A stretch of 32,000 nucleotides of DNA, taken from assembly GCA_016700015.1 (NCBI GenBank), contig CP064995.1:840001-872000 (forward strand), given 5' to 3'. This DNA comes from Candidatus Saccharimonadota bacterium. Lineage in GTDB: Bacteria; Patescibacteriota; Saccharimonadia; Saccharimonadales; Saccharimonadaceae. The translations under genes were made by a program, and so were the position numbers. The stretch's first letter is position 1; every line of letters begins with the position of its first letter. Positions 12,104-28,336 of the stretch are shown here, piece by piece. A model generated the notes under the pieces. That model worked only from the letters and a program-made list of their open reading frames with translations. It was not told the DNA's origin and made no database searches.

Positions 12104-12529
12104 CTATACCGCGTTGTCTTTGTTTGCAAAGCTACTTATGACAAAGTTGACGGCTGCGTAAGCAAGGATCGCAACAACAAGCCCAATGATTGCGTAAAGA
12201 ATTGTGTTCTTCGCAGAGGTGACTGCTGAGCTATCGCCTTGCGATACGGTGTAGCGAATACCACCGATGATCAGCATAACAACCGAGACCGCGCCGATAA
12301 TGAACAATAAGACATTGGTGACAGTTTGGAAGATACCACCAGTGCCAAAGAGGCTATCTGGCTGGTCCTCACTTTTTGCGCATGATGCCGATTGGCTAAG
12401 GCTGAGGTTGGCGGCATTACAGTCGACAGCAGCGACCGCAACTGCAGACGAAACCGTCACACAAAGGCCAAGCATCACGAGCGGTGCAGTCACAGCTGAC
12501 CGAATCCGCATCTTGAGAGTACTATTCAT
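12104..12529 (-). CDS. VirB2/TrbC-like T4SS pilin paralog P2
   Basis: Signal peptide, a Cys pair in the mature N-terminus (VDCNAANLSLSQSASCAK), and the core LLFIIGAVSVVMLIIGGIRYTVSQGDSSAVTSAKNTILYAIIGLVVAILAYAAVNFV. It has its own promoter, an SD (AGGAAAGGAA) and a terminator. Confidence 0.8.
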   Translation of the reverse strand: MNSTLKMRIRSAVTAPLVMLGLCVTVSSAVAVAAVDCNAANLSLSQSASCAKSEDQPDSLFGTGGIFQTVTNVLLFIIGAVSVVMLIIGGIRYTVSQGDSSAVTSAKNTILYAIIGLVVAILAYAAVNFVISSFANKDNAV

Positions 12530-12572
12530 TTTTTGGTTCCTTTCCTAATTACTGGAATTACTCTTGACTCTA

Positions 12573-12601
12573 TATATACCAGATAACACGCCGGTTGTTA
12601 A
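12573..12601 (-). promoter_or_regulatory. Sigma70-like promoter TTAACA-17-TATATA for pilin P2
   Basis: Minus-strand TTAACA (12596-12601), a 17-nt spacer and TATATA (12573-12578), in the 75-nt gap between P3 and P2. Confidence 0.55.
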
Positions 12602-12604
12602 CTG

Positions 12605-12979
12605 TTATTTAGTAAAATTGTCTACCACAAAGTTAACAATGGCGTAGGCCATAATAGCGACGACCAGTCCAATGACAGCATAGAGTATGGTATTTTTCGC
12701 CCCTGTAACCGCGCTCGTGTCGCCGTTTGATACAGTATAGCGAATGCCGCCGATAACAATCATAACGACAGCAATGGCGCCAAGAATAGTGAGAAGTACA
12801 TTAACTATTGTTTTCACAAATGAACTAACGGATTTTGTATTGCCTCCTGGATTTGTCGCATTGACCGATTCTTTGAGACAATTTGCCGGAGTGTCGCAGG
12901 CCGCATAGGCAGGCACTGCCACAAGACTAATTCCTAGCGCCATCAGTAGGGCAGTAAAGATAGGTTTGATGTTTCGCAT
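12605..12979 (-). CDS. VirB2/TrbC-like T4SS pilin paralog P3
   Basis: Signal peptide ending AYA, Cys pair (ACDTPANC), and the core LLTILGAIAVVMIVIGGIRYTVSNGDTSAVTGAKNTILYAVIGLVVAIMAYAIVNFV. SD AAGGAGAA lies upstream. Confidence 0.8.
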   Translation of the reverse strand: MRNIKPIFTALLMALGISLVAVPAYAACDTPANCLKESVNATNPGGNTKSVSSFVKTIVNVLLTILGAIAVVMIVIGGIRYTVSNGDTSAVTGAKNTILYAVIGLVVAIMAYAIVNFVVDNFTK

Positions 12980-12988
12980 AGTTTCTCC

Positions 12989-13360
12989 TTATCCAAAAAA
13001 TTTGGTTACTAATAGCACGACCGCTTGGCCGATAAGCGCAACAACGAGACCAATAACCGCATAGAGTATCGTGTCCTTTGCTGATTTTGTCCCACTTGAA
13101 TCGCCGCCCGATACCGCATACTTGATGCCGCCGATAACAATCATTAATACCGATACAAGACCCAGTATACCAGTTGCTACACGTATGGCTTGCCAAACAC
13201 CGCTTGCCCCATTGGCATAATCGAGCTTATTGTCTTTGACCACATTACAGCTTGAGTCAGTACAGTTCTTAAACAAATCAATGGCCGCAACGGGAGGGGC
13301 AATAACAAGACCGGTCACACTCATTGTGGCAAGAACCAGGGCAGTGCACAGTCGCTTCAT
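12989..13360 (-). CDS. VirB2/TrbC-like T4SS pilin paralog P4
   Basis: Signal peptide, Cys pair (NCTDSSC), and the core GLVSVLMIVIGGIKYAVSGGDSSGTKSAKDTILYAVIGLVVALIGQAVV. The start is coupled to the P5 stop (TAA-T-ATG). Confidence 0.78.
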   Translation of the reverse strand: MKRLCTALVLATMSVTGLVIAPPVAAIDLFKNCTDSSCNVVKDNKLDYANGASGVWQAIRVATGILGLVSVLMIVIGGIKYAVSGGDSSGTKSAKDTILYAVIGLVVALIGQAVVLLVTKFFG

Positions 13361-13361
13361 A

Positions 13362-13652
13362 TTAAAACCCCCCTAGAACTATATTTGTAATGGTGAATGC
13401 ACTAAGAATAACAATCAGTCCTACTGCGGCGCCAATCACTGCATTACGGGCACGAGTTACTTGCTGAGGATTGCCGTTCGAAGTAACAAACAAATAACCC
13501 GCCACTAAAATAACGATGATGGCAATAACCCCGCCCCAGAAGTAAACTGGCATCAAAATATTTTTTATAATGCCAGTGTCAGACTTCGGCCCCGTAAAAG
13601 AGACGTCATTTGTATTTAAAAGTGCTGCAAATTGATAAAGATAAGGTTTCAT
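13362..13652 (-). CDS. Divergent VirB2-like two-helix protein P5
   Basis: 96 aa with no obvious cleavable signal and no Cys. It has the same helix-loop-helix layout (VIAIIVILVAGYLFVTSNGNPQQVTRARNAVIGAAVGLIVILSAF) and is tightly coupled to its neighbours. Confidence 0.65.
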   Translation of the reverse strand: MKPYLYQFAALLNTNDVSFTGPKSDTGIIKNILMPVYFWGGVIAIIVILVAGYLFVTSNGNPQQVTRARNAVIGAAVGLIVILSAFTITNIVLGGF

Positions 13653-13653
13653 G

Positions 13654-14082
13654 CTATTTAATTACTCCTGCGACAGCGTTAACGATAGAAGCGGCAAGCA
13701 GAGAGATTACCATGCCGATGAGCGCGTTTGTAATTGTTTTCTTGGCACTCGACATTCCTTCTGGTGAGCCAGCAGCCGTAATGTATCCGAATCCACCCTT
13801 TATAATGAAAAATATTGTGACGTATGCCACGACGACCAGTAGTGCCTGAATAACATTGAGTGCAATTTTTAGAATTAGCTGACCAATGTCAGGCTTGCCA
13901 TTGCTCTCAGGTGCTTTGAAATTGCACGATCCGTCCTGCATGCCTTTATACCACGCTGGAATCATAAACACCGTATCAGTACATGCCGCTCGAGCGGGAG
14001 TCGATAACACAGTGGCAGTACCAACTGAGGTAAAGGCCATCCCAAGTATAATGATGACACTCGCGAATACATTCCGAATCAT
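13654..14082 (-). CDS. VirB2/TrbC-like T4SS pilin paralog P6
   Basis: Signal peptide ending ARA, Cys pair (ACTDTV...GSCNF), and the core LLVVVAYVTIFFIIKGGFGYITAAGSPEGMSSAKKTITNALIGMVISLLAASIVN. There is a 4-nt ATGA overlap with P7. Confidence 0.72.
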   Translation of the reverse strand: MIRNVFASVIIILGMAFTSVGTATVLSTPARAACTDTVFMIPAWYKGMQDGSCNFKAPESNGKPDIGQLILKIALNVIQALLVVVAYVTIFFIIKGGFGYITAAGSPEGMSSAKKTITNALIGMVISLLAASIVNAVAGVIK

Positions 14083-14543
14083 CCTATTACTCCCCCCGGC
14101 ACCAACCAGTTAAGTGCAAGTACCATGAGGGAATAGGCGATAATTCCGATAACAGTGTCGGTAATAAGCTTTTTCGACTTGGTAACCTGTTCTTGGCCGC
14201 CACCAGCACTTGAATACAATATTCCTGCGTACACCAGTGTGCCAACTGCGGCGATCCCTATACCCACACTCAGAAGTTGCAATACCCACTTGAGAATCAT
14301 GAAAATCCCCGTTGATTTGGCGTCAGTAGATGTGCTTGATGATGTCGAACATATCCAATCAGGTAAAATAGCACATTTGCCCTTTGCTTTGTCGTCGGGG
14401 ACCGAGCCGTTTGCTGTCGTGGTTGTTGCCGGAGTTGTTGTGGGAGTTGTTTCGGCAGCTACCGACACGGGAATCGTGGTCGTTGAGACGATGGCAAATG
14501 CTGCAATAGAGACAGTGGTAATAATTATTTTTTTTATCATCAT
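14079..14543 (-). CDS. VirB2/TrbC-like T4SS pilin paralog P7 with a Thr/Pro-rich linker
   Basis: The ORF is trimmed to ATGATG at 14543 (MMIKKIIITT...). It has a signal peptide, a TTPTTTPATTTT linker, a Cys pair (KCAILPDWIC) and the core SVGIGIAAVGTLVYAGILYSSAGGGQEQVTKSKKLITDTVIGIIAYSLMVLALN. Confidence 0.7.
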   Translation of the reverse strand: MMIKKIIITTVSIAAFAIVSTTTIPVSVAAETTPTTTPATTTTANGSVPDDKAKGKCAILPDWICSTSSSTSTDAKSTGIFMILKWVLQLLSVGIGIAAVGTLVYAGILYSSAGGGQEQVTKSKKLITDTVIGIIAYSLMVLALNWLVPGGVIG

Positions 14544-14660: not shown

Positions 14661-14669
14661 TGAAACGAT

Positions 14670-17600
14670 ATGTGGGAACTGCGCAAACAGCTTCCGCACG
14701 GTAGAATATCCGTGCGGCGTGTTTCTCTGTTCGCCAGCCTATTGGTGCTGGCATTTTTCACGCAACTCACGCTATTTTCAAACACGGCGCTAGCGGCTGA
14801 TGTCACACGGACTGGTGACTCAGTTGCGTATGGTGGTAACACTTATGGGCTCGCAATAAATGCCGACATTCCTGCCGGACTACCCGCTGGCACTTCTGGG
14901 TACGTTTACCGTGACAGCGGGACTGGAACTGCCTCGTTTATCTTGACTAGTGGTGATGCTGCAAAAGCGACCACTGGTCAATATGTCGTTTATCCGCTCA
15001 ATCCCGATGGCTCATTGGCCGGCGCACCAAGGGCACCTCCTGTAAGTGTTTCAATTGCCGATACTGCACCAAATTCGCTCGCAAGCACCACCAAAGGGGC
15101 ATCGAGCTGTGACGGCTCTCTTACTGGCGGAGCTGGTTGGATTATTTGTCCAGTCACTAACTTCTTGGCGAATCGTATGGATGACCTCTATAAGATCCTG
15201 ACTAGCTTCCTTGAGGTTCGCCCCGTCCAGTCCAACCCGAACAGCTCACTTTACCGCATGTGGGCAATCGTTCGTGATATTGCCAATATCTGCTTTGTGA
15301 TTGTGTTCCTCGTCATCGTCTACTCGCAAGTCACCAGCATGGGAATTAGCAACTACAATCTCAAGCGTATGCTGCCGCGACTTATTATTGGTGCAATTCT
15401 TGTGAATACCTCATTTTGGATTGTTGCACTAGGCGTTGATCTCTCAAACATTCTTGGCTACTCTGTTTACGATCTCATGATGGGGGTCCAGCGTAGTCTG
15501 GCGGGTGCAGGGCAATACAATACCACAGTACCAACCTGGCAGGTTATTACTGCGTATGTTCTCTCGGGTGGCGGGGCGGCTGTCGGCCTTACTGCTGCGG
15601 TGATTGGTGCTGGCGGTTTTGGTGCCGCGCTAACACTACTCATTCCCACCATTTTGATGGTATTCCTCGGTGCGCTCGCGGCCGTAGCTATATTGGCGGC
15701 ACGACAGGCACTCATTACCGTCTGTATCATCATCGCCCCGCTAGCATTTGTGGCCTATGTACTCCCAAGCACCGAAAAGTGGTTCGGGAAATGGAAAGAT
15801 CTTCTGACCACCATGCTAGTCATGTTCCCTATGTTTTCACTTATATTTGCCGGTGCTCAGCTAGCCGGCCTTGCCATTATTCAAAACGCCACCTCAATCG
15901 TGCAAGTAATTATCGGCATGGCGGTACAGGTCGCCCCTGTCGTGGTGACACCGATGCTTATCAAGCTTAGTGGCTCACTACTTGGCAAAATTGCTGGTAT
16001 TATCAACAACCCCAATCGCGGACTGATTGATCGCACGCGCAACTGGTCAAAAGACCGTGCTGCACTGCACGCTGCTCGCGTACGCGCAGGGCAAGAGCGT
16101 ACTAGGGTATTCAACCGTAACCCCGTCAACCGCGCCGTCCGTAGCCGTGATATGGCTCGCCGTCGCCGCGAAGGATTAAAGAGTGCTTATGAAGCCCAAG
16201 CGGCCAATGACTTTACCGAGCGCGATAATCGTCGCTACCGCAACAGCGAGCAAAGTATCGAAGCCATGACTCGCCGCACCGCTGTACGTAAACAGCAGAT
16301 CGAAAACAACTTTGGCCGCACTGCCGTGGCTCAGCGGCTTGAGTTTGATAAACGCATGACAGAAGCCGACAAGGTAGATGTCGAAAATACATTTAGCCGA
16401 ACCCACCTAGGCCATAGCGCCGAGATGCGCACACGCCACGTACACGACCAAAAGAAAGTTATCGAGGCTGAGCACGAGAACGATTACCTTGTTAGCGCCA
16501 ACGGCCGCACAAATCAGCTCGAAATTCGTCACCTTCAAGATCGTAAAAAGATTATCGACTCCGATCAGGGTTATGACTATGCAATCAGTCAGCGTGGTCG
16601 AGACAATGAACTTCATATAAGGGGTCAGGAAAATCGTGAATCTGGGCGCAAAGCCCGTGCAGACAGGCACTTTTCTGAACTGACTTCTGGTAATTCAACC
16701 GATGGCTACTATGGTGATTTTGCTACGAATGGCCACCTACAGGTCCAGGGGCAAGCGCTTTCCGCTAATCTTAAAGAGGTAAGCGTACAAGTGTCTCTCG
16801 ACAATATGGCCAAACGCAACGCCGAGTTTGCGCTGCAAAGCGACATCGCAAAAACAATCGAGAGTAGTGCGACGCACCTCAATCTCGGCGGCATGACTGC
16901 TCGGGCATACGCATCGGGCGTCGCCGGCACACAGGGCGAAGCCTCAGCACTTGCAAGCGCCAGGTCGACTGCCCGTGAGCAATTTGGTAAATTCAGCGCC
17001 GAGTACGAAGAGCTGCGCAATCAGTACATGCCACCAATCGGTGATGTTAAAGAATTTTTGCGCGGCAACCAGAATCTCCAATTCAAAGACGAGAGCGGCA
17101 ACGTGGTGCTCGAAGTTGACGGCAGCAACATGTATGCGGTCAATGCCATGGTCAAGCATATTACTAGTGTTGGTATTGTCGACGAAGTTGATGAGATGAT
17201 TAAACTATCCGGTAAGGGTCAGCCCCTTCATGACTACCGCGAAACAATCGCCGATGTACTGGCCCAGAAGGGCTATGGCGGCCGCAGTATCTACGAAGGT
17301 GGGCAGGTTATTGAGCGAGTTCGACAGGGCGAAATATCATCAGAAACCGACCTGCTTGAGCATATTCAAGAACAGACCGCAAAGGGTAAGGTTTCGCCTG
17401 CCGACCTCGCTACGATGGACGCCGTCGCAATTGGACGCTTTATCAGCTCTATCAAGCACAACCGTCGAGCCGGCAGCACCAATGACGCCGGTATAGCCGT
17501 AAACGACCTTGGTCCCACCTATCTCGAAGAGGTGGCGAAGTTAGTCGAGAGCGCCCACGATGCCCTGACCGATGATCGTCTAAAGGGTACGGTAAAGGGC

Positions 17601-17720
17601 AACGCCAAGATACAGCTCTACAAACTTGAGCACGCCTACCGTACGCTACCAAAGAACACTCTGGGCGATATTGATCTAAGTGGTCTCAGCCTCCACCAAA
17701 TCCAGAGCCTGTTGCCATAG
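14670..17720 (+). CDS. Giant VirB6/TrbL-like polytopic membrane protein, paralog A (1016 aa)
   Basis: Signal peptide, a ~150-aa ectodomain, the GWIICPV motif (15135-15155), and about 6 TM helices (residues ~195-440). The ~575-aa C-terminal extension is basic and holds tandem ~30-aa repeats. The TM core is strongly similar to the 18792..21602 product. The VirB6 assignment rests on topology and context, not on a recognised signature. A GTG start near 14712 is an alternative. Confidence 0.6.
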   Translation: MWELRKQLPHGRISVRRVSLFASLLVLAFFTQLTLFSNTALAADVTRTGDSVAYGGNTYGLAINADIPAGLPAGTSGYVYRDSGTGTASFILTSGDAAKATTGQYVVYPLNPDGSLAGAPRAPPVSVSIADTAPNSLASTTKGASSCDGSLTGGAGWIICPVTNFLANRMDDLYKILTSFLEVRPVQSNPNSSLYRMWAIVRDIANICFVIVFLVIVYSQVTSMGISNYNLKRMLPRLIIGAILVNTSFWIVALGVDLSNILGYSVYDLMMGVQRSLAGAGQYNTTVPTWQVITAYVLSGGGAAVGLTAAVIGAGGFGAALTLLIPTILMVFLGALAAVAILAARQALITVCIIIAPLAFVAYVLPSTEKWFGKWKDLLTTMLVMFPMFSLIFAGAQLAGLAIIQNATSIVQVIIGMAVQVAPVVVTPMLIKLSGSLLGKIAGIINNPNRGLIDRTRNWSKDRAALHAARVRAGQERTRVFNRNPVNRAVRSRDMARRRREGLKSAYEAQAANDFTERDNRRYRNSEQSIEAMTRRTAVRKQQIENNFGRTAVAQRLEFDKRMTEADKVDVENTFSRTHLGHSAEMRTRHVHDQKKVIEAEHENDYLVSANGRTNQLEIRHLQDRKKIIDSDQGYDYAISQRGRDNELHIRGQENRESGRKARADRHFSELTSGNSTDGYYGDFATNGHLQVQGQALSANLKEVSVQVSLDNMAKRNAEFALQSDIAKTIESSATHLNLGGMTARAYASGVAGTQGEASALASARSTAREQFGKFSAEYEELRNQYMPPIGDVKEFLRGNQNLQFKDESGNVVLEVDGSNMYAVNAMVKHITSVGIVDEVDEMIKLSGKGQPLHDYRETIADVLAQKGYGGRSIYEGGQVIERVRQGEISSETDLLEHIQEQTAKGKVSPADLATMDAVAIGRFISSIKHNRRAGSTNDAGIAVNDLGPTYLEEVAKLVESAHDALTDDRLKGTVKGNAKIQLYKLEHAYRTLPKNTLGDIDLSGLSLHQIQSLLP
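16182..16679 (+). repeat. Five to six degenerate tandem ~30-aa repeats inside the paralog A C-terminal extension
   Basis: Protein-level periodicity, for example GHSAEMRTRHVHDQKKVIEAEHENDYLVSAN / GRTNQLEIRHLQDRKKIIDSDQGYDYAISQR / GRDNELHIRGQENRESGRKARADRHFSELTS. Weaker copies precede them (EQSIEAMTRRTAVRKQQIENNFGRTAVAQ, RLEFDKRMTEADKVDVENTFSRTHL). Confidence 0.55.
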
Positions 17721-17726
17721 GCGCTA

Positions 17727-17755
17727 TTGACAAATATAACCATATGGTGTATAAT
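17727..17755 (+). promoter_or_regulatory. Perfect consensus sigma70 promoter TTGACA-17-TATAAT
   Basis: TTGACA (17727-17732), exactly 17 nt, and TATAAT (17750-17755) preceded by TG. It lies between the paralog A stop and the lipoprotein gene. Confidence 0.75.
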
Positions 17756-17847
17756 GAAATTATAACCATACTCGTGTAGTAAATTACAAAGGAGAATGCA
17801 TAATTATTATGGTAAAACGTGATCCATCACCACGAAAAGGTAACTTT

Positions 17848-18720
17848 ATGAGTCGCCGCGGCTTCTTAGAGGTAGGCACACTCCTCGGCATTACGGCACT
17901 CGTATCTGCCTGTAGTCCCTCGGGCGATAAACAAGGCCCAACCCCAGCGCCAACAACCAGCTCAGCTGATAAAACTCCTGGAACAACCTCTGTGGCTACA
18001 GAATCAGGAACAAAGACTCCTGAAACAGGTGCTCGTGCAGTTCGCAATGCGACGATAGACAAGCTTGAACATAGCGACCTCTACGCTTCACTTAGTCCCG
18101 AAATGAAAAATAAATTCCAGTATCTTCACGATATGGATCTTACTCACTTTGAGCAGCAGCCCCTACAAGATCGCCTAGCCTATGCTCAGTTTGTGTACGA
18201 TACATACCATGACATGATGAAAGCGCAGGTCATTGCGCGTAAGGGCACCTGGGAAGAACATAGTACTAACCCTGATTCATGGTACGAACCAACCATTCCT
18301 TCCGCAGATGATACCGCCAAGAAAATAGTGGTTCAGCATTCCGACACGATGGCAACGTGTGTCTATGCAATCGCTCAAGCAAGTAATGGTCCTTCCAGCC
18401 CAAGGGTTGAATCCAAAGTTCTAGACGCTCAAAAATGTTCCGTACTCTTCAATGCAGACCCATCTATGCCTCAATACCGCAGATTTGTTAATGAAATCGC
18501 TAGCCAGGCAGATGTTACTAAAGATAATGATGGCTACATCGCACTCTCACCTGATGATGGTTTCAAAACCGCCAAAGTCGTTAGTGGTATGCCAACGATG
18601 GAAGTCCGGATGGACTACCTTGCTGCAGGCACTACTGCAACACACAGGAAAGTTTTCTTCGAATTTACTGACCTGCTTGGTGCCAAGCGCGGCACATGGT
18701 CAAGTACTAAAATCGTATAG
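17848..18720 (+). CDS. Lipoprotein with a twin-arginine-type signal peptide, function unknown
   Basis: MSRRGFLEVGTLLGITALVSAC has a SRRxFL Tat motif and a lipobox Cys at residue 22 (17911-17913), followed by a Pro/Thr/Ser linker and a ~220-aa domain. The start is taken at 17848 (AAAAGG 7 nt upstream) rather than 17809. Confidence 0.65.
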   Translation: MSRRGFLEVGTLLGITALVSACSPSGDKQGPTPAPTTSSADKTPGTTSVATESGTKTPETGARAVRNATIDKLEHSDLYASLSPEMKNKFQYLHDMDLTHFEQQPLQDRLAYAQFVYDTYHDMMKAQVIARKGTWEEHSTNPDSWYEPTIPSADDTAKKIVVQHSDTMATCVYAIAQASNGPSSPRVESKVLDAQKCSVLFNADPSMPQYRRFVNEIASQADVTKDNDGYIALSPDDGFKTAKVVSGMPTMEVRMDYLAAGTTATHRKVFFEFTDLLGAKRGTWSSTKIV

Positions 18721-18737
18721 TTAGTCATCCATGTAAT

Positions 18738-18773
18738 AAAGCGACTGCTCAACAGAGTGGTCACTTTATTTTT
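18738..18773 (+). terminator. Rho-independent terminator after the lipoprotein gene
   Basis: AAAGCGACTGCTC (18738-18750), loop AACA, GAGTGGTCACTTT (18755-18767). There is one mismatch and two G-U pairs, and ATTTTT follows. Confidence 0.65.
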
Positions 18774-18791
18774 ACGGCATTCTGGTGTTAA

Positions 18792-21602
18792 ATGATAAAC
18801 GTAAGTATGATAGGTATTCGACTGCGAGCATGGGCATTAGCCGTAATACTTGTTGCATCAATTGTAGCTGGTCTGTTGAATAGTACATCGGTTTCGGCAG
18901 CAGGCGAGAAATACCAGTATGACCTGTTAGAGCGAAGCAAAGCATACGTTTGGGGAAGCTGGTTAGTAGCTTGCTATACAGGTATGTCGGGGTTTGATAT
19001 GAGCTCTAGTGGCGCAGGAGATGGTACGATTTATGCAAAACTTACCGGTAAGTCATTCAATCTAAACCCTATCCTCAGCCCCGATATCATAACGCCAAAC
19101 TGTAACGATAGCAACAAGATCAAGCAAGCACTCGACTATTTTGGCATCAGCACTTACGACTTTATCTGTGATATCCTCGGTGGTCAGCGCCACAACGGAG
19201 CTGACTGTAAAGACACGGGCAGTACTGCAGACTGGACAATACCTACACCTGATGGGACTAAGGTAAAAAATGGAATGGTATCAAAAGTTGGCTTTGATGT
19301 GTTTAACGTAATTGATGCGCAGCGTTATGTGTTTTTCCGTCAAACGTTTATTGCTGGCTGCGAGGTAAAAGATCCTGCCGGCACAGCTTTGAGTGCAATT
19401 ACCAACCCCAGCGACGCCGCCGTTGGAGATTTGCGCTACCAAATAAAATCTCCAAATGCCGATGCAAGCGCACTTGAACCATATGTTTTTAATACAGGCA
19501 AGGGTGGTAAGGTAAATATATCGTTTGTTGCAAAGACCAATCCAGTAGGGTTTAGTAGTGAGTATAATTGTGAGACCTTGGCTAAGAATGCCAATGACTA
19601 CGCCGATGCGTATCTTAAGTTTTTAAAAACATTACCTACTTGTGATAATCAATATCAGAGAGATGGTGTAGACGTAATCGCCGCTTGTCAGTACGGATTC
19701 AGCCAAAAAGGTTCAGGCGACCCCATCCAAATATGTGCCACTAAGTATCCGGCCCCAGATGGTCCTGGCGGTCCCAGCTATAGCCGTGATCCGCGACAAA
19801 AAGCATTTTATGATGCTTGTTATTGGGGAGCAACGAGTGCTTATGCGGCCAGCCTTAGTGGTGCTGTGACGCTACAAGATGGCGCGAAGGGTAATCAGGG
19901 CAATGTAGCTGCTAAGTCAACCTGCGGTATCACCGGTGTCGGCTGGATTATTTGCCCTGTTATGACATTTCTTTCGGAAGTAATGGACAACACCTTCAAG
20001 TTCCTCGCCGATAGTTTCTTGTCGACAGACCCAGAGGTGTTTAAAATTGGTTCGCCCACGCAAAAAGCCTGGTCAATATTTCTAAGCTACGCCAATGTTG
20101 GTTTTGTCATTGCTTTTATGATTATTATTTATTCGCAGATCACAAGTGCCGGTATTAGCAATTACGGTATCAAGAAAATGCTGCCAAAACTAATTGTTAG
20201 TGCAATATTGGTCAATATTTCGTATTATTTATGCCAAGCGGCGATCGATCTGAGTAATGTGCTTGGCTATAGTATTATGAATTTATTTAGTGCTATTGCA
20301 AAAGACCCGTCAATCGCTAGTTCGACTGCTGCTACGCTTAACTGGAATGGTACAATTACCGCTATTTTGGCTGGTGGTGCTGCCATAGGATTGCTCGTTG
20401 CTGTCGGCGGTACATTTTTACTGGCAGCACTTTTAGCTGCCGCAACAGTGGTACTTATTTTACTGGCGCGCAAGGCACTTCTTATTTTGCTTGTTGTGCT
20501 GGCGCCGCTAGCGTTTGTCGCCTATTTATTACCAAACACTTCGAGCTTATTCACAAAATGGCGCAAAATGTTCACTTCGCTACTGCTTGTTTTTCCGATC
20601 GTCGCCTTACTGTTTGGTGCTAGCAAGCTTGCAGCTGCAATTATATCTTCGTCCGACCCAAGCAATACTGTGGCTCAGCTGATGGCGCTCGCCATAGCCG
20701 TGATTCCGTTGTTTGCAGTAGTGCCACTTCTTAAAGGCGCAGTGAATGCCATTCCGGTAGTTGGTAGCAAATTGCAGGGCTGGGGAAACAAGGCAACTGG
20801 ACGAGCTAGTGCTGCCGGGAAAAAGGGGCTGGGTGATGCCTATCAAAACTCAACGCTCGGTCGCTATAACAAATATAAAGCTGGGGAAAAATCAAAACGA
20901 AACTCTCTAATACAGGCCGGGGTCTATAAAGGGAAGGGTGGTGTATTCAACCCCCGCAATCTACGCTCTAAATCCAGGAATCGATTTAATAACTCTTGGG
21001 TAAGTGGTGGTTTCGGTGACAAAACTGCTGCTGCAGGAGCGGCGGCGGCAAGCAAAATCGAGCAAGAAGAGGTTGATAACGAAGTAACAAAAATGGGTAA
21101 GAGCTTTAATGGTCCAGATCAAGAGCTCAAGGAGGCTACCGATGCTTACAATGCGGCGCTTCATTCGGGAGATGTAGTGCGTGCACGTGCAGCACAAAAA
21201 ATATTGCTTAGTAAGGGGTCTGCGGGCGTACAGGCAATCCGGGATGTTGTAGGTGGAAAGAAAGACTCAGCAGGCAACGAAATATACAAAGGACTAAGTG
21301 GTATAAAGAATGGTGCCGTCTCATACGCTCGAAGCGACCTAGCTTCTGCTGGCATAAAAGGGAAAGATGCTGGCTTAAATACCTGGAGCTACGACGATAA
21401 GAATCGAGATCTGGCAGATGTTGATGCTAGTGCCAGTACGTATACTGGGCTTACCGATAGTGAACTTGCCGGCCAAAGTGCAGCTGTTCTACGAGCAGCG
21501 GTGGCCGCAGGGCACATTGACCGTGCGCGCCGAGATGCAATGCTTGCAAACCAAACAATTGAGGCGCAGTTGTCTGAAGACAAGAAGGCCATACTACGAT
21601 AA
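18792..21602 (+). CDS. Giant VirB6/TrbL-like polytopic membrane protein, paralog B (936 aa)
   Basis: Signal peptide and a ~380-aa ectodomain with 12 Cys. GWIICPV motif at 19941-19961. The TM core is collinear with paralog A (MLPKLIVSAILVNISYY...IDLSNVLGYS, LAPLAFVAYLLPNT). The C-terminal extension is Lys/Gly/Ala-rich. An alternative start is the ATG at 18807. Confidence 0.6.
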   Translation: MINVSMIGIRLRAWALAVILVASIVAGLLNSTSVSAAGEKYQYDLLERSKAYVWGSWLVACYTGMSGFDMSSSGAGDGTIYAKLTGKSFNLNPILSPDIITPNCNDSNKIKQALDYFGISTYDFICDILGGQRHNGADCKDTGSTADWTIPTPDGTKVKNGMVSKVGFDVFNVIDAQRYVFFRQTFIAGCEVKDPAGTALSAITNPSDAAVGDLRYQIKSPNADASALEPYVFNTGKGGKVNISFVAKTNPVGFSSEYNCETLAKNANDYADAYLKFLKTLPTCDNQYQRDGVDVIAACQYGFSQKGSGDPIQICATKYPAPDGPGGPSYSRDPRQKAFYDACYWGATSAYAASLSGAVTLQDGAKGNQGNVAAKSTCGITGVGWIICPVMTFLSEVMDNTFKFLADSFLSTDPEVFKIGSPTQKAWSIFLSYANVGFVIAFMIIIYSQITSAGISNYGIKKMLPKLIVSAILVNISYYLCQAAIDLSNVLGYSIMNLFSAIAKDPSIASSTAATLNWNGTITAILAGGAAIGLLVAVGGTFLLAALLAAATVVLILLARKALLILLVVLAPLAFVAYLLPNTSSLFTKWRKMFTSLLLVFPIVALLFGASKLAAAIISSSDPSNTVAQLMALAIAVIPLFAVVPLLKGAVNAIPVVGSKLQGWGNKATGRASAAGKKGLGDAYQNSTLGRYNKYKAGEKSKRNSLIQAGVYKGKGGVFNPRNLRSKSRNRFNNSWVSGGFGDKTAAAGAAAASKIEQEEVDNEVTKMGKSFNGPDQELKEATDAYNAALHSGDVVRARAAQKILLSKGSAGVQAIRDVVGGKKDSAGNEIYKGLSGIKNGAVSYARSDLASAGIKGKDAGLNTWSYDDKNRDLADVDASASTYTGLTDSELAGQSAAVLRAAVAAGHIDRARRDAMLANQTIEAQLSEDKKAILR

Positions 21603-21620
21603 TGAGGGTGTTTATGGTAT

Positions 21621-22640
21621 ATGGCAGTCTATAAAGTAGCCCAAGACGTAGAAGCCGACGACAAGCTCATTGGCCCGTTTAGCTTTCGGCAATTTGTATA
21701 CCTGATTATTGTTGCGCTGGCGATTGCTCTTGCGTGGGGGCTCAGTCGGCTGTTCATCGGGCTTATTGTTATACCCATGCCGATTATTCTGTTTTTCGGC
21801 GCACTGGCGTTACCGCTACGCAAAGATCAGCCAATGGAGATCTATATGGCGGCCATCGTATCGTTTTATCTGAAGCCACGCAGGCGCCTGTGGATACCAG
21901 ATGGAGTTGAGTCCCTAGTTGAAATTACTGCACCAAAAGTCATCGAAGTGCAGCGTGTAAAGGACATTTCACAAACAGAGGCCGAGCGCCGGCTCGGCTA
22001 TCTGGCCGATATTGCCGATACCCAGGGATGGGCCGTGCGGCATGTGGCACAACCGGCGGGCAGTTCTATGGTAACTGACGCTTTCTACGCCGCCCAGCAG
22101 ACCGAGGACATTCTCGACGAAAGCGGCGGACTAGCTTCGAGTATCGACACTATGATGGCACACGCCGACGAGCGTCATCGCCAAGAAGTTGTCGAACGCA
22201 TGAAAAACCCAGCCCCCACTGCTCCGCAACCAGCCCCAGTTGTTGACCCTATGGCTACTACTCCCATACCCGCAACCAGTGCGATGAATGATCCGCTAGC
22301 AGCTCAGTATGCTACTAGTTTTAGTTCTCCTGTCGCTCAACAGCCCACCGCCGATGACATAGCAGCCCTTCAATACAATCCGTATCCGACAGAAATTCAC
22401 CAGATGGTTATCAATCCACTCGAACCAGCTGAGGCACTCGTAGCGTCAGCGCCAACCGTGCCCATACAACAGCCAAACAATAACACGACAAGCACTAGCG
22501 AAACTACTGTCTCACCTGATATAATTAATCTTGCAACTAATCCCGATTTATCTATCGAGACAATTTCGCGTGAAGCGGCGAGGATCCAGAAAAAAGCCGA
22601 CGAAGACGCAGGTGAAGAGGTCTTTATCTCACTCCACTAG
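21621..22640 (+). CDS. PrgI/VirB3-like small membrane component with a long Pro/Ala/Thr-rich tail
   Basis: The N-terminus VAQDVEADDKLIGPFSFRQFVYLIIVALAIALAWGL..., followed by a second TM helix, is the PrgI-family layout. The gene sits immediately upstream of VirB4, as in Gram-positive T4SS loci. Confidence 0.6.
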   Translation: MAVYKVAQDVEADDKLIGPFSFRQFVYLIIVALAIALAWGLSRLFIGLIVIPMPIILFFGALALPLRKDQPMEIYMAAIVSFYLKPRRRLWIPDGVESLVEITAPKVIEVQRVKDISQTEAERRLGYLADIADTQGWAVRHVAQPAGSSMVTDAFYAAQQTEDILDESGGLASSIDTMMAHADERHRQEVVERMKNPAPTAPQPAPVVDPMATTPIPATSAMNDPLAAQYATSFSSPVAQQPTADDIAALQYNPYPTEIHQMVINPLEPAEALVASAPTVPIQQPNNNTTSTSETTVSPDIINLATNPDLSIETISREAARIQKKADEDAGEEVFISLH

Positions 22641-22673
22641 TTTCGACGATAGGTTGGCATAAGGGAGTGGGGA

Positions 22674-23543
22674 GTGCCACCAAACAATCAAATGCCTGTT
22701 AATCAGCCACCGCAAGTTCCAGCGCCCGCCGCTGGTGGTTTTGGTGGGGCTACAGCAACGAGTCCCGACGCCAAACAGCCCGAGAAAAAGGCTGCTAGTA
22801 CACAGAATAGTCTGTTATTGTCTGAGCTTCGTGACGGTATGATTATTATGGCCGACGGAACATTCCGAGCGGTAATCGCCTGTAAATCGATTAACTTCGA
22901 TCTTATGAGTAGTCGCGAACGCGAAGGTGTAGAATTTAGTTACCAGAACTTCTTGAACGCTTTGTATTTCCCAATCCAAATTTTCATCCGGAGTCAGCGC
23001 GTCGATATTGGCCCGTATCTTGATCGGCTCGAAGAAATCCGTCGCAACCAAGATAATATGTTGCTCAATGTCCTGATGGATGACTATATTCAGTTTATCG
23101 ACGTACTGTCGCAAGAAGCCAATATTATGGATAAAAGTTTTTTCATTGTCGTACCATATTTTCCGGCCGGTGACGTGAACAATGTTGTCGACCAAGGGAA
23201 GGGATTCTTTAGTAAAATCTTGGGGGGTGGAACACGGCAAACGCAAGTGACCCGTATCGACAAAGTGACGTATGAGAAGGCAAAAGAAGAAATTCGCAAC
23301 CGTGTCGATAGTGTGATCAGTGGGCTCACTCAGGTTGGTGTGCAGGCAGTGCAGTTGACTACCAAAGAGCTCGGCGAGCTGTATTATAATGTGTATAACC
23401 CTGATACCGCGGTGCGCGAACCACTTGGCGACTTTGACAGTATCACGAGTACCTATGTTCGCAAAGGTGGAGCACCACTAGCAGCACCAACAGCTGCACC
23501 CGCAACCCCCATACTACCGCCAGCGCAAACGGGGGGACAGTAA
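22674..23543 (+). CDS. VirB4 N-terminal domain encoded as a separate ORF
   Basis: GTG start after GGGAG. After a Pro-rich leader comes the block LRDGMIIMADGTFRAVIACKSINFDLMSSREREGVEFSYQNFLNALYFPIQIFIRSQ. This block resembles the extreme N-terminus of single-chain Gram-positive VirB4 proteins (Tn916 Orf16/TcpF/PrgJ type), as recalled from family knowledge. Confidence 0.65.
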   Translation: MPPNNQMPVNQPPQVPAPAAGGFGGATATSPDAKQPEKKAASTQNSLLLSELRDGMIIMADGTFRAVIACKSINFDLMSSREREGVEFSYQNFLNALYFPIQIFIRSQRVDIGPYLDRLEEIRRNQDNMLLNVLMDDYIQFIDVLSQEANIMDKSFFIVVPYFPAGDVNNVVDQGKGFFSKILGGGTRQTQVTRIDKVTYEKAKEEIRNRVDSVISGLTQVGVQAVQLTTKELGELYYNVYNPDTAVREPLGDFDSITSTYVRKGGAPLAAPTAAPATPILPPAQTGGQ

Positions 23544-28329: not shown

Positions 28330-28336
28330 AAATATT

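What the first reader, a model, noticed from the sequence alone, without database searches (positions are those of the whole stretch)
14670..21602. Two giant VirB6-like paralogs sharing a GWIICPV motif and TM core but carrying unrelated ectodomains and long cytoplasmic tails
The 1016-aa and 936-aa products are collinear and clearly homologous from a conserved Cys...G(A/V)GWIICPV(T/M).FL element (15135-15155 and 19941-19961) through about six TM helices. Examples are MLPRLIIGAILVNTSFW...VDLSNILGYS versus MLPKLIVSAILVNISYY...IDLSNVLGYS, and IAPLAFVAYVLPSTEKWFGKW versus LAPLAFVAYLLPNTSSLFTKW. Before this core, paralog A has a ~150-aa Gly/Ser/Thr-rich ectodomain with one extra Cys. Paralog B has a ~380-aa ectodomain with 12 Cys and no resemblance to A. 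Both add 400-575 aa of charged C-terminal sequence, far beyond canonical VirB6 (~300 aa). Divergent exposed domains on a shared channel core look like alternative receptor-binding or host-contact modules.
Basis: seen in the sequence. Interest (0 to 1): 0.65.

Follow-up and report, generated by a model that had tools for sequence, protein, structure and literature searches.

The report
Paired giant VirB6 proteins, Saccharibacteria T4SS
The two giant membrane proteins are the paired VirB6-type subunits of the known, essential type IV secretion system of Saccharibacteria (tiny bacteria that live attached to other bacteria), and the outer domain of one of them, with a neighbouring lipoprotein, is replaced wholesale between closely related strains.

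Summary
ORFs 14670-17720 (A, 1016 aa) and 18792-21602 (B, 936 aa) share a core of about 280 aa (40% identity, E 6e-53; profile-profile E 1e-92). The core starts at an invariant Cys...GWIICPV element at exactly the stated coordinates. The N-terminal domains and the tails are unrelated.

The window is a Saccharibacteria chromosome. Its cluster matches the published essential T4SS of Southlakia epibionticum ML1 gene for gene: six VirB2-like pilins, A, a lipoprotein, B, PrgI/VirB3, TrsD, VirB4, cell-wall hydrolases. Two adjacent virB6 genes are already annotated in TM7x and ML1, so the pair itself is not new.

VirB6 membership rests on Foldseek (best specific hits are TrwI/VirB6, prob 0.96-0.99), on TrbL Pfam hits in family members, and on synteny. 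The window's own proteins miss the Pfam threshold.

"Alternative modules" is not supported. A and B form two monophyletic clades, every two-copy locus has one of each, and both are essential in ML1. A's ectodomain is a conserved small beta domain.

The added result concerns B's Cys-rich ectodomain and the body of the upstream lipoprotein. In this clade they are exchanged as one ~2-kb cassette, with the break 8-10 codons before the motif. A host-contact role is plausible but inferred.

The parts
12104..14507 (-). Array of six VirB2-like T4SS pilin genes, transcribed divergently from paralog A. A seventh pilin gene lies at 8601-9017 (+).
   Evidence: All six ORFs hit Pfam PF18895 T4SS_pilin, some also TrbC/VirB2. 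The same array is seen in L001, L084, L086 and L087 and corresponds to SEML1_0014-0019.
14670..17720 (+). Paralog A (1016 aa), an A-type extended VirB6. Signal peptide aa 1-42. Beta-rich ectodomain aa 43-146 (nt 14796-15107). Cys147...GWIICPV junction and helical core aa 147-434 (nt 15108-15971). Tail aa 435-1016 (nt 15972-17717): long helices, then a confidently folded helical domain at aa ~700-1016.
   Evidence: sequence, motif. AF2 mean pLDDT 77, ectodomain above 90, C-terminal domain 91-97. Foldseek 8rtd_L and 8rt9_F, prob 0.99; invariant C147, G156, C160; charge and Cys pattern.
17727..17755 (+). Perfect sigma-70 consensus promoter-like site (TTGACA-17-TATAAT), just after A's stop codon and 54 nt upstream of the lipoprotein gene.
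   Evidence: It is the only such site in the 32-kb window, with 0 in 100 shuffles. A match of at least 11/12 sits at the same offset upstream of the lipoprotein gene in 16 of 69 related loci, against 0.4% background. This is a consensus match only; function was not tested.
17809..18720 (+). 'Mid' gene (303 aa): lipoprotein with a twin-arginine-like signal (SRRGFL), lipobox LVSAC and a Pro/Thr linker, followed by a hypervariable globular body. It is syntenic with SEML1_0012 (NTF2-like/VirB8-like, non-essential).
   Evidence: lipoboxes across loci; only 7 homologues among 5.8 billion clusters; the profile hits only lipoprotein signal/linker regions in the PDB; annotation and NE status of the ML1 counterpart.
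17870..19914 (.). Replaced cassette: the body of the lipoprotein gene, the intergenic region and B's ectodomain. There is no DNA similarity to the closest relative here, while the flanks match.
   Evidence: BLASTN of the window against L001 matches 10441-17870 and 19914-27794 only. Protein identity across the cluster: A 88%, VirB4 96%, B tail 94-98%, B ectodomain 18-34%, lipoprotein 31%. The same break is seen for L084/L085 and L088/L089. Co-variation matrix.
18792..21602 (+). Paralog B (936 aa), a B-type extended VirB6. Signal peptide aa 1-36. Cys-rich, mostly helical ectodomain aa 37-377 (nt 18900-19922). Cys378...GWIICPV junction and core aa 378-652 (nt 19923-20747). Tail aa 653-936 (nt 20748-21599), helical.
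   Evidence: AF2 mean pLDDT 76, core 85-96, tail 84-96, ectodomain 50-84. Foldseek TrwI/VirB6, prob 0.90-0.96. Pfam TrbL E 0.28 over model positions 24-211; relatives above the gathering score; the ectodomain has 5 hits among 1.84 billion representatives.
21621..22640 (+). PrgI/VirB3-like protein.
   Evidence: Pfam PF12666, E 5e-11.
22674..23543 (+). TrsD/TraC-like protein. It is a separate gene, not a split VirB4.
   Evidence: NCBIfam TrsD, E 1e-5. Orthologues carry PF26593 TraC-like. TrsD homologues next to VirB4 are described in PMC12102498.
23545..25392 (+). VirB4 ATPase, CD1110 family.
   Evidence: NCBIfam NF045971, 369 bits, above its cut-off of 325. Pfam P-loop_TraG.
25411..30295 (+). 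A 972-aa protein with no Pfam hit (25411-28329) and a peptidoglycan hydrolase with glucosaminidase and phage-lysozyme2 domains (ORF as listed 28097-30295; the true start is probably after 28329). These are the cell-wall-lytic part of the cluster.
   Evidence: ML1 counterparts are SEML1_0007 and 0006. The C-terminus of the 972-aa protein and the hydrolase also differ from L001.

Best explanation
A and B are the two VirB6-family (TrbL/TrbL_3, 'extended VirB6') membrane subunits of the chromosomal type IV secretion system of a Saccharibacterium. This is the system shown to be essential for epibiotic growth in S. epibionticum.

Shown here:
- They share a helical VirB6-like core that begins at an invariant Cys-x(9-12)-Cys element inside the ...GW(I/V)(I/V)CP(V/I) motif.
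- They belong to two old, separately monophyletic paralogue groups.
- B, always with the lipoprotein gene directly upstream, is the constant module. A sits in the cluster in about 70% of well-flanked Saccharibacterial loci.
- A carries a conserved small beta-rich ectodomain. B carries a Cys-rich ectodomain that, in this clade, is exchanged as one ~2-kb cassette together with the body of the lipoprotein gene.
- The downstream junction of that exchange lies 8-10 codons before the motif.

Inferred:
- Topology is N-terminus outside and tail inside, with five spans plus one re-entrant segment, as classically described for VirB6.
- By analogy with R388 TrwI/VirB6, the cores form the membrane platform on which the VirB2-like pilins from the adjacent array are recruited and assembled.
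- The N-terminal ectodomains sit where VirB5 sits in Gram-negative systems. No VirB5 was recognised among the genes of this window's cluster.
- B's ectodomain and the lipoprotein form the exposed, strain-specific surface of the machine, facing the host cell or some other selective agent.
- The Cys-free, conserved tails dock cytoplasmic partners such as VirB4 and TrsD, or substrates. No coupling protein was recognised in the window.
- Cassette exchange most likely occurs by homologous recombination between the conserved flanks. Saccharibacteria are naturally competent.
For: Identity and context:
- Homologues are Saccharimonas/Saccharibacteria proteins, many carrying precomputed PF19590 TrbL_3.
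- The cluster equals ML1 SEML1_0006-0020 gene for gene.

VirB6 core:
- Foldseek for A: 8rtd_L and 8rt9_F, prob 0.99, E 0.02. For B: 8rtd_L prob 0.96.
- B-type relatives score 26.7-27.7 bits on TrbL against a gathering score of 25.9, over model positions 7-210.
- The predicted core has the same count of long helices as the seven described for VirB6 in PMC9259494.

Paralogy:
- Two monophyletic clades. 41 of 41 two-copy loci hold one A and one B, in order A-B in 30 and B-A in 11.
- Clusters with B only: L090 and L091.

Non-redundancy:
- SEML1_0011 (B position) is scored ES/ES/ES and SEML1_0013 (A position) NE/ES/ES.

Topology:
- Signal peptides.
- Family-wide charge pattern and Cys distribution.
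- B-type proteins mostly have 5, 7, 9 or 11 Cys before the motif Cys.

Cassette:
- Window against L001.
- Among B-type pairs with tails at least 80% identical, ectodomain identity is bimodal: 71 pairs at 0.5-1.0, 9 pairs near 0.2, none at 0.3-0.4. A-type pairs show no such split.
- L084 against L085: flanks 92-98% identical, 1.8 kb with no match.
- L088 against L089: 99.1% identical from 8 codons before the motif, nothing upstream.
- Lipoprotein body and B ectodomain co-vary in 10 of 10 pairs. The same cassette also occurs joined to different B tails: L003 against L085 is 100/97% in the cassette but 65% in the rest of B.
- The lipoprotein-B unit has its own conserved consensus promoter-like site. 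It is inverted as a unit in L086.
- In TM7x, one virB6 and virB8 rise at the initial host encounter, and the other virB6 rises in stable symbiosis.
Against: - The window's own A and B do not reach any Pfam or NCBIfam threshold. B scores 11.4 bits on TrbL (E 0.28); A has no hit.
- A family profile finds no VirB6 by sequence in the PDB.
- The Foldseek E-values are weak (0.02-0.6) and TM-scores are 0.34-0.40. Foldseek describes the entries only as complexes; I assigned the chains to TrwI/VirB6 from their length (261-272 residues), not from a check.
- In the R388 structure only two VirB6 helices cross the membrane, so topology rules based on hydrophobicity may mislead. The side on which the tails lie is not proven.
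- I had no access to model coordinates and no multimer prediction. Oligomeric state and A-B or B-lipoprotein contacts are untested.
- Linkage of the lipoprotein body and B ectodomain is not universal. In the oral Nanosynbacter-like clade the upstream ORF is replaced while B's ectodomain stays 58-98% identical.
- The ML1 lipoprotein counterpart is non-essential. That argues against it being a core structural VirB8.
- Nothing here shows binding to a host.
Confidence: 0.72

Rival explanations
1. A and B are interchangeable channel cores carrying alternative receptor-binding modules, so a cell uses one or the other depending on the target.
For: The ectodomains are unrelated. In TM7x the two virB6 genes peak at different stages, initial encounter against stable symbiosis. 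The lipoprotein-B unit has its own promoter-like site.
Against: A and B are ancient orthologous groups with one of each per two-copy locus. Both are scored essential in ML1 under a single host condition. A's ectodomain is conserved family-wide rather than variable. The tails also differ completely, which suggests different cytoplasmic partners and not just different tips.
Confidence: 0.12
2. The cassette varies to escape something that uses it, such as phages that adsorb to exposed T4SS parts or host-derived defences, rather than to match host receptors. This would be negative frequency-dependent selection on an exposed antigen-like surface.
For: Discrete, deeply diverged cassette types are shared across more distant genomes and differ between near-identical ones. 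That is the pattern expected for long-lived balanced alleles. The pilin genes and cell-wall hydrolases in the cluster are also more diverged than VirB4.
Against: There is no direct evidence for either selective agent. This rival is compatible with the best explanation in everything except the agent of selection.
Confidence: 0.25
3. The proteins are permeases of a non-T4SS transporter. KEGG assigns K01992, ABC-2 type permease, to the ML1 orthologues. On this reading they merely lie next to T4SS genes.
For: Automated KO assignment in Table S1 of PMC10633639. The window's proteins do not pass TrbL thresholds.
Against: No ABC-2 or other transporter family hit even at E up to 10. The best structural matches are VirB6. 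Relatives pass the Pfam TrbL threshold. The position between the pilin array and PrgI-TrsD-VirB4 is strictly conserved in dozens of genomes.
Confidence: 0.03
4. The apparent cassette replacement is an artefact of metagenome assembly: chimeric contigs joining strains at a variable region.
For: Several compared contigs are short metagenomic assemblies (L084, L085, L088, L089). One near-identical lipoprotein fragment (P0242) departs abruptly after aa 208, which may be a frameshift or an assembly error.
Against: The same junction, 8-10 codons before the motif, appears in three independent pairs from different samples and assemblers. The reading frames stay intact on both sides. The pattern also holds between the window and a 318-kb contig. 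Identical cassettes recur in independent samples: L003 against L085 is 100/97%.
Confidence: 0.05

Closest known systems
SEML1_0013 / SEML1_0011 of Southlakia epibionticum ML1 and TM7x_00060 / TM7x_00055 of Nanosynbacter lyticus TM7x (Saccharibacterial T4SS; PMC10633639, bioRxiv 10.1101/2022.03.25.485537, PMC12102498)
   Same: The gene order is the same: pilin array, ~1000-aa protein, ~280-aa NTF2-like/'virB8' protein, ~1000-aa protein, PrgI, TrsD, VirB4, hydrolases. The structure-based labels are 'TrbL/VirB6' and 'Type IV secretion system protein', with ARM-like C-terminal domains. Both are essential. Two virB6 genes are reported in TM7x.
   Different: I did not have the ML1 or TM7x sequences, so orthology is by synteny and size only. 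The papers I read speak of 'the virB6 gene' or list two without analysing domain architecture, the A/B split or cassette exchange.
TrwI/VirB6 of plasmid R388 (PDB 7o3v, 8rt9, 8rtd) and A. tumefaciens VirB6
   Same: These are the best specific structural matches to both cores, with about 290 aligned columns. The core is a bundle of long, mostly hydrophobic helices. The genes sit beside VirB3/VirB4 and VirB2-like pilin genes. VirB6 is the proposed pilin recruitment and assembly platform.
   Different: Sequence identity is 13-19% and the E-values are weak. Canonical VirB6 is about 300-340 aa with no signal peptide, no N-terminal ectodomain and no long tail. It carries VirB5 on top, and no VirB5 was recognised among the genes of this cluster. 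The Cys...GWIICPV junction helix has no described counterpart.
Extended VirB6 proteins: PrgH (pCF10), TcpH (pCW3) and Orf15 (Tn916) in Gram-positive systems; the tandem RvhB6/VirB6 paralogues of Rickettsia and Anaplasma (PMC2653234, PMC7648143)
   Same: A VirB6 core enlarged by big hydrophilic domains (review PMC12857230). Rickettsiales carry several tandem VirB6 paralogues with differing extensions (abstracts).
   Different: No sequence similarity of the extensions was detected. Here the enlargement includes a cleavable signal peptide plus an N-terminal extracellular domain. There are exactly two paralogue classes, and one ectodomain is exchanged as a cassette. The comparison with PrgH and TcpH rests on my own knowledge and was not tested here.
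Amplified and diversified surface components of host-adapted T4SSs, such as the VirB2/VirB5 variants of the Bartonella Trw system and Anaplasma VirB2 paralogues, as discussed for Patescibacterial VirB2 arrays in PMC12102498
   Same: Exposed T4SS parts diversify while the ATPase stays conserved. The proposed link is to host-surface interaction or evasion.
   Different: Here the diversity is allelic replacement of a single-copy cassette between strains, not tandem amplification. It affects a domain fused to VirB6 and a lipoprotein, not pilins or VirB5.

Membership tests
TrbL/VirB6 (Pfam PF04610; related PF19590 TrbL_3) | Significant match of the protein itself to the family HMM, at or above the gathering score | tested here: not met
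   B scores 11.4 bits on PF04610, E 0.28, against a cut-off of 25.9, but over model positions 24-211 of 215. A has no hit. PF19590 is not returned by the Pfam copy searched here.
TrbL/VirB6 (Pfam PF04610; related PF19590 TrbL_3) | Transitive homology: clear relatives of the protein match the family HMM | tested here: met
   B-type relatives P0152, P0149 and P0194 score 27.7, 27.0 and 26.7 bits, above 25.9, over nearly the whole model. Precomputed PF19590 is listed for the closest orthologues of both A (P0001) and B (P0121). A and B cores are homologous at E 1e-92.
TrbL/VirB6 (Pfam PF04610; related PF19590 TrbL_3) | VirB6 fold: bundle of about seven long, mostly hydrophobic helices | tested here: inconclusive
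   The best specific Foldseek hits for both models are chains of the R388 TrwJ/VirB5-TrwI/VirB6 stalk entries: prob 0.85-0.99 for A and 0.80-0.96 for B. E-values are 0.02-0.6 and TMt 0.34-0.40. Chain identity was inferred from chain length only.
TrbL/VirB6 (Pfam PF04610; related PF19590 TrbL_3) | Encoded within a T4SS gene cluster with VirB4 and VirB3 | tested here: met
   PrgI/VirB3, TrsD, VirB4 (CD1110 family, 369 bits) and a VirB2-like pilin array flank the genes. The arrangement is conserved in more than 60 loci.
TrbL/VirB6 (Pfam PF04610; related PF19590 TrbL_3) | N-terminus outside, C-terminus in the cytoplasm, polytopic | tested here: inconclusive
   Signal peptides, charge distribution, Cys parity and Cys-free tails all fit N-out/C-in. 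No experimental or coordinate-based membrane placement was possible.
TrbL/VirB6 (Pfam PF04610; related PF19590 TrbL_3) | Oligomeric (pentameric) platform that recruits VirB2 and supports substrate transfer | not testable with these tools
   No multimer prediction or experiment was available.
Extended VirB6 (review PMC12857230) | Five or more hydrophobic helices plus one or more large hydrophilic domains | tested here: met
   Six hydrophobic segments. Hydrophilic N-terminal domains of about 105 and 340 aa, and tails of 582 and 284 aa.
Patescibacterial/Saccharibacterial chromosomal T4SS (PMC10633639, PMC12102498) | Chromosomal cluster with VirB4 of the Patescibacteria/MPF-FATA type, TrsD, PrgI, VirB6 and a VirB2-like pilin array, with no relaxase or coupling protein | tested here: met
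   Gene content. Housekeeping neighbours are ValRS, RlmH, HIT and tRNAs. No relaxase or VirD4-like hit appeared in the ORFs scanned. Gene-for-gene match to SEML1_0006-0020. The phylogenetic position of VirB4 was not tested.
VirB8-like protein (for the lipoprotein gene 17809-18720) | NTF2-like VirB8 fold in the extracytoplasmic domain | not tested
   Only the syntenic ML1 gene SEML1_0012 has a structure-based NTF2-like (e4ec6D1) label. Pfam and a 27-sequence profile against the PDB gave nothing beyond the lipoprotein signal and linker.
Diversity-generating retroelement target | Template/variable repeat pair and a reverse transcriptase nearby | tested here: not met
   No repeat of 30 nt or more involves the ectodomain or lipoprotein region. 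No reverse-transcriptase hit in the ORFs scanned.

The most novel reading that the evidence does not exclude
The ~2-kb unit made of the lipoprotein body and the VirB6-B ectodomain is the exchangeable, host-facing tip of the Saccharibacterial T4SS. It would be fused or tethered at the position that VirB5 occupies on VirB6 in Gram-negative machines. It would be driven by its own consensus promoter and passed between strains by natural transformation. Cassette type would then set which Actinobacterial hosts, or which host cell-surface variants, an epibiont can exploit.
Probability: 0.3. Interest if true: 0.75.

Novelty: new member of a known kind. Interest (0 to 1): 0.45.

Why it matters
The Saccharibacterial T4SS is essential for epibiotic growth, yet a 2024 perspective calls its role 'completely unknown' (PMC11665869). 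This window holds an ordinary member of that system, so the two giant VirB6-like genes are not a discovery in themselves.

Dissecting them does give concrete handles:
- There are two non-redundant VirB6 classes with different outside and inside domains.
- A conserved Cys...GWIICPV junction separates the variable part from the constant part.
- An extracellular cassette (lipoprotein body plus B ectodomain) is replaced between strains that are otherwise 92-99% identical.

If that cassette governs host recognition, host range in Patescibacteria becomes testable by cassette swaps in the genetically tractable strains. The cassette type could also serve as a marker in metagenomes.

Tried and rejected
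- Direct Pfam and NCBIfam scans of A, B and the lipoprotein found nothing significant.
- Sequence searches of A, B and the B-family profile against PDB sequences found no VirB6.
Ten selected members were scanned instead.
- A diversity-generating retroelement or silent-cassette mechanism was rejected for the window. No template-like repeats were found.
- Site-specific inversion of the lipoprotein-B unit in L086: no flanking inverted repeats were found.
- A 27-sequence profile of the lipoprotein against the PDB hit only lipoprotein signal and linker regions, so its VirB8 status stays untested.
- An exhaustive HMMER search with B's ectodomain found no outside family. It returned 5 hits, all B-type proteins or a fragment.
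- Fetching R388 to confirm which PDB chains are TrwI failed because the accession is not in the plasmid collection.
- One contig look-up, for P0242, failed.
- The idea that 22674-23543 plus 23545-25392 is a split VirB4 was rejected. The first ORF is the separate TrsD/TraC-like gene known from these clusters.
- The Arthrobacter locus L013 was scanned for T4SS neighbours. Only hypothetical proteins and a C5 DNA methylase were found.
Full report
**1. What is in the sequence**

ORF 14670-17720 (A, 1016 aa) and ORF 18792-21602 (B, 936 aa) are both on the + strand. A 303-aa ORF (17809-18720) lies between them.

BLASTP of A against B gives one significant segment: 40% identity over 281 aa, E 6e-53 (A 154-430, B 382-647). 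Profiles were built from 121 A-type and 118 B-type relatives. With these, the cores align with Prob 100%, E 1e-92 over 271 columns. The tails (Prob 0.4%) and the ectodomains (Prob 0.2%) show nothing.

- B's tail is about 284 aa rather than 400.
- The 'six TM helices' are six hydrophobic segments whose charge pattern fits five spans plus one re-entrant segment.

**2. Where the window comes from, and the gene context**

Relatives of both proteins are almost all from Candidatus Saccharimonas/Saccharibacteria assemblies.

The window carries housekeeping genes: FemAB, ValRS, RlmH, HIT and four tRNAs. It then carries a T4SS cluster:
- six VirB2-like pilin genes on the minus strand (12104-14507, PF18895)
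- A
- the 303-aa gene
- B
- PrgI/VirB3 (21621-22640)
- a TrsD/TraC-like gene (22674-23543)
- a CD1110-type VirB4 (23545-25392; 369 bits against a cut-off of 325)
- a 972-aa protein with no Pfam hit
- a glucosaminidase plus phage-lysozyme2 hydrolase

This is, gene for gene, the cluster SEML1_0006-0020 of Southlakia epibionticum ML1, which Tn-seq showed to be essential for epibiotic growth (PMC10633639). In that paper's tables:
- The ~1088-aa gene next to the pilins (SEML1_0013, A position) has a best structural match named 'TrbL/VirB6' and is scored NE/ES/ES.
- The 278-aa gene (SEML1_0012) is 'NTF2-like' (ECOD e4ec6D1) and NE/NE/NE.
- The 998-aa gene (SEML1_0011, B position) is a 'Type IV secretion system protein' and ES/ES/ES.

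A TM7x transcriptome study lists two adjacent virB6 genes and a virB8. TM7x_00055 and the virB8 gene TM7x_00050 rise at the initial encounter. TM7x_00060 rises in stable symbiosis.

The Patescibacterial T4SS, its VirB6 homologues, TrsD, PrgI and the variable VirB2 arrays are described in PMC12102498 and reviewed in PMC12857230. The pair of giant VirB6-like genes is thus already on record. I found no analysis of their domain architecture in the papers I read.

**3. Is the core VirB6?**

Evidence against, or missing:
- The window's own proteins fail the curated thresholds. B scores 11.4 bits on Pfam TrbL (E 0.28), although across model positions 24-211 of 215. A has no hit.
- PDB sequence searches, including a family profile, find nothing.

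Evidence for:
- B-type relatives reach the TrbL gathering score: 27.7, 27.0 and 26.7 bits against 25.9.
- The closest orthologues of both A and B carry precomputed PF19590 TrbL_3.
- AlphaFold2 models built on the family alignments are confident in the core. B has mean pLDDT 75.6 with core 85-96. A has mean 77.3.
- Foldseek against the PDB puts chains of the R388 stalk complex first among specific hits. For A: 8rtd_L and 8rt9_F, prob 0.99, E about 0.02. For B: 8rtd_L prob 0.96, and 7o3v_F and 8rt9_F prob 0.90-0.91. About 290 columns align and TMt is 0.34-0.40.

I take these chains of 261-272 residues to be TrwI/VirB6 and not TrwJ/VirB5 on length alone. I could not verify that.

The predicted core is a series of long helices, in line with the 'seven long alpha-helices, five mostly hydrophobic' of TrwI/VirB6. 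It has an extra N-terminal helix that starts at GWIICPV.

No transporter family matched even at E up to 10. The automated KEGG label K01992 for the ML1 genes therefore has no support here.

**4. Topology**

- Both proteins start with a hydrophobic signal ending in an A-x-A site...NTALA|ADV in A and ...SVSAA|GEK in B.
- Across 239 family members the ectodomains are net acidic.
- The loops h1-h2 (+2), the R/K junction after h3 (+1.0 to +1.3) and h4-h5 (K+R = 3.0) are basic.
- The h2-h3 and h5-h6 loops are neutral to acidic.
- The first 60 residues of the tail carry +8.4 net charge.
- All basic loops fall on one side only if h4 is re-entrant or interfacial. That gives N-out, five spans, C-in.
- Cys residues support this. 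The junction region holds two invariant Cys in both families (A C147/C160, B C378/C388).
- B-type ectodomains mostly carry an odd number of further Cys (7, 11, 5 or 9). With the motif Cys the total is then even.
- The tails contain no Cys at all in any member.

This is inference. In R388 only two VirB6 helices cross the membrane, so hydrophobicity-based rules need caution.

**5. Two old paralogue classes, not alternatives**

I fetched 80 loci from one-genome-per-species assemblies, plus contigs of close relatives.
- Clustering and a neighbour-joining tree of 124 core sequences give two monophyletic groups, with A in one and B in the other. HMM scoring agrees.
- All 41 two-copy loci contain exactly one A-type and one B-type gene.
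- The order is A-lipoprotein-B in 30 loci. It is B-A, with a gap of 24-727 nt, in 11 loci, including oral Nanosynbacter-like genomes.
- In 42 loci only B is seen. Twenty of these have at least 8 kb on both sides, and 17 of those 20 are Saccharibacterial.
- Two B-only loci were inspected gene by gene. They read pilins, lipoprotein, B, PrgI, TrsD, VirB4, with no A.

B with its upstream lipoprotein is therefore the constant module and A the additional one. Whether A lies elsewhere in the B-only genomes could not be checked.

Three things contradict the 'alternative modules' reading:
- the strict one-of-each pattern
- the essentiality of both ML1 genes
- the wholly different tails

A's tail has long, low-confidence helices followed by a helical domain at pLDDT 91-97. 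B's tail is a 284-aa helical domain at pLDDT 84-96. Foldseek hits to ARM/karyopherin folds are weak.

**6. The ectodomains behave differently**

A's ectodomain (aa 45-130) is a confidently predicted beta-rich domain (pLDDT above 90) with nearly invariant Tyr residues. It is recognisable in 94 of the 120 A-type relatives.

B's ectodomain is mostly helical with moderate confidence. It gets BLAST hits in only 15 of 240 relatives. In an exhaustive HMMER scan of 1.84 billion representatives it has only five hits: a near-identical fragment and four weak B-type proteins.

Compared with the closest public relative (L001, a 318-kb JGI contig with the same gene order), identities are:
- A 88%
- VirB4 96%
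- B tail 94-98%
- B core about 44-92%, varying by segment
- B ectodomain 18-34%
- lipoprotein 31%

DNA similarity stops at 17870 and resumes at 19914, which is 27 nt before the motif.

**7. Cassette exchange**

*Bimodal ectodomain identity.* Among B-type protein pairs whose tails are at least 80% identical, ectodomain identity is bimodal. There are 71 pairs at 0.5-1.0, nine pairs near 0.2, and none at 0.3-0.4. Examples:
- P0123/P0124: core 98%, tail 100%, ectodomain 25%
- P0184/P0188: 99/100/20
- P0209/P0202: 98/91/25

A-type pairs show a continuous 0.4-1.0.

*DNA breakpoints.*
- L084 and L085 are 92-98% identical except for 1.8 kb. That stretch runs from about 230 nt into the lipoprotein gene to 10 codons before the motif.
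- L085 matches the more distant L001 straight through the same stretch.
- L088 and L089 are 99.1% identical from 8 codons before the motif onward and unrelated upstream.

*Co-variation.* In a five-locus matrix the lipoprotein body and the B ectodomain co-vary in all ten pairs, for example 28/25, 73/77 and 100/97%. This is independent of the rest of B (58-99%) and of PrgI (79-100%).

*Mosaic tails.* L003 and L085 share an identical cassette joined to B cores and tails that are only 65% identical. The tail side is therefore mosaic too.

*Cassette types.* At least three occur in this small clade. The window's type has no close relative in the databases searched, apart from two near-identical short contigs.

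*Limit on the linkage.* In the oral clade the upstream ORF is replaced (0.25-0.29 against 0.83-0.99) while B's ectodomain remains 58-98% identical.

*Mechanisms excluded.* No template-like repeats or flanking inverted repeats were found. A retroelement or an invertase is thus not indicated. Recombination between conserved flanks is the simplest mechanism but is inferred.

*Further signs that lipoprotein-B is a unit.* A perfect TTGACA-17-TATAAT lies at 17727-17755, unique in the window, with 0 in 100 shuffles. It is conserved (at least 11/12) at the same offset in 16 of 69 loci, against 0.4% background. The two genes are also inverted together in L086.

**8. How it most likely works**

By analogy with R388, VirB6 is the membrane platform that recruits VirB2 at its base, assembles the pilus at its top, and carries VirB5 on top. 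On that analogy I propose the following.
- The A and B cores form the platform for the adjacent pilin array.
- Their N-terminal domains occupy the VirB5 side of the platform.
- B's ectodomain and the tethered lipoprotein form the exposed, strain-specific part.
- The Cys-free tails engage cytoplasmic partners in a system without a recognisable coupling protein.

The cassette pattern argues for strong selection on an exposed surface. Whether the agent is host-receptor matching, or evasion of phages or host defences, cannot be decided here.

The TM7x expression data fit a role of the lipoprotein-B unit at first contact, because virB8 and the virB6 gene listed next to it rise at the initial encounter. 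That holds only if TM7x_00055 is the B-type gene, which I infer from gene order in a Nanosynbacter locus.

The non-essentiality of SEML1_0012 suggests the lipoprotein is an accessory rather than a core structural VirB8.

**9. Verdict**

The finding is a correct description of ordinary members of a known, recently characterised system: the extended VirB6 pair of the Saccharibacterial T4SS. Its interpretation is half right. The 'VirB6-like, N-out, C-in' part holds. The 'alternative receptor modules on both paralogues' part does not.

The part worth a specialist's attention is the discrete replacement of the lipoprotein/B-ectodomain cassette at a fixed junction. This is new as far as I could find, and it is directly testable in the tractable strains.

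Noticed in passing
window 17727-17755: This is the only perfect sigma-70 consensus (TTGACA-17-TATAAT) in the 32-kb window. It sits between A's stop codon and the lipoprotein gene. A match of at least 11/12 lies at the same offset in 16 of 69 related loci, against 0.4% in random windows. This suggests that the lipoprotein-B unit is a separately and strongly transcribed unit.
   Followed up: partly
window 27794-30295 against L001 18956-22382: A second diverged patch between the window and its closest relative. The last ~170 aa of the 972-aa protein are 16-26% identical. The following hydrolase has a different domain set: glucosaminidase plus phage-lysozyme2 in the window, and Glyco_hydro_3, phage-lysozyme2 and Peptidase_M15_4 plus an extra 163-aa ORF in L001. 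The cell-wall-lytic module of the T4SS is therefore also exchanged between near relatives.
   Followed up: partly
L013 8807-12088 (Arthrobacter sp. MI7-26, RefSeq isolate contig of 548 kb), L016 (Microbacterium MAG), L042 (Rhodoglobus MAG): B-type VirB6-like genes of 971-1118 aa occur in high-GC (58-60%) Actinobacterial contigs. They form a small clade nested inside the Saccharibacterial B clade, with L019 as nearest neighbour. No Saccharibacteria-like PrgI or VirB4 lies nearby. The neighbours in L013 are hypothetical proteins and a C5 DNA methylase. This could be gene transfer between epibionts and their host phylum, or a mobile element. It is not resolved.
   Followed up: partly
L086 13287-17489 (JGI contig of 931 kb): The lipoprotein gene and B are inverted together relative to A and PrgI. 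No flanking inverted repeats were found.
   Followed up: partly
L090 and L091, and 17 Saccharibacterial loci with at least 8 kb flanks: These T4SS clusters have pilins, lipoprotein, B and PrgI, but no A-type gene within about 9 kb. Whether A is lost or lies elsewhere in these genomes is unknown. L091 also has a large serine recombinase gene among the pilin genes.
   Followed up: partly
L030, L035, L039, L041, L045, L048, L054 (oral Nanosynbacter-like loci): In this clade the gene order is B then A, with a gap of 24-49 nt. The ORF upstream of B falls into discrete types (0.25-0.29 against 0.83-0.99 identity) at B-core identity of 0.92-0.98. B's ectodomain is only moderately diverged here.
   Followed up: partly
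P0242 against window 17809-18720: A 304-aa protein from a 2.9-kb Logan contig is 100% identical to the lipoprotein for 208 aa and unrelated afterwards. This may be a frameshift or assembly error, or another mosaic. The contig look-up failed.
   Followed up: no
window 14079-14699 (-) against 14670 (+): The longest ORF for the sixth pilin gene (GTG start, 206 aa) overlaps A's start codon. The orthologue in L001 is 143 aa, so the real start is probably near 14507. That leaves about 160 nt of divergent promoter region, with a promoter-like site at 14632-14660.
   Followed up: no
window 25411-28329 and 28097-30295: The listed ORFs overlap by 233 nt. The hydrolase's GTG start is probably too far upstream, since its first Pfam domain begins at aa 205.
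   Followed up: no
P0234 (B-type relative) aa 44-119; P0194 aa 1-36: One B-type ectodomain gives a sub-threshold hit to the Candida ALS agglutinin N-terminal domain (E 4e-4, 20 bits against a cut-off of 25). This is a weak hint of an adhesin-like fold in some cassettes. P0194 begins with a carbamoyl-phosphate synthase fragment, probably a gene-call fusion.
   Followed up: no
window 6160-10695: Four tRNA genes (Ser-CGA, Arg-GCG, Ser-GCT, Ser-TGA) are interspersed with a lone pilin gene (8601-9017), a 524-aa ORF with no family hit (9006-10580, minus strand) and a phosphoribosyltransferase-like gene. The order ValRS-RlmH-HIT...pilin...PRTase-HSP20-pilin array is conserved in distant Saccharibacterial genomes (L086, L087).
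   Followed up: no
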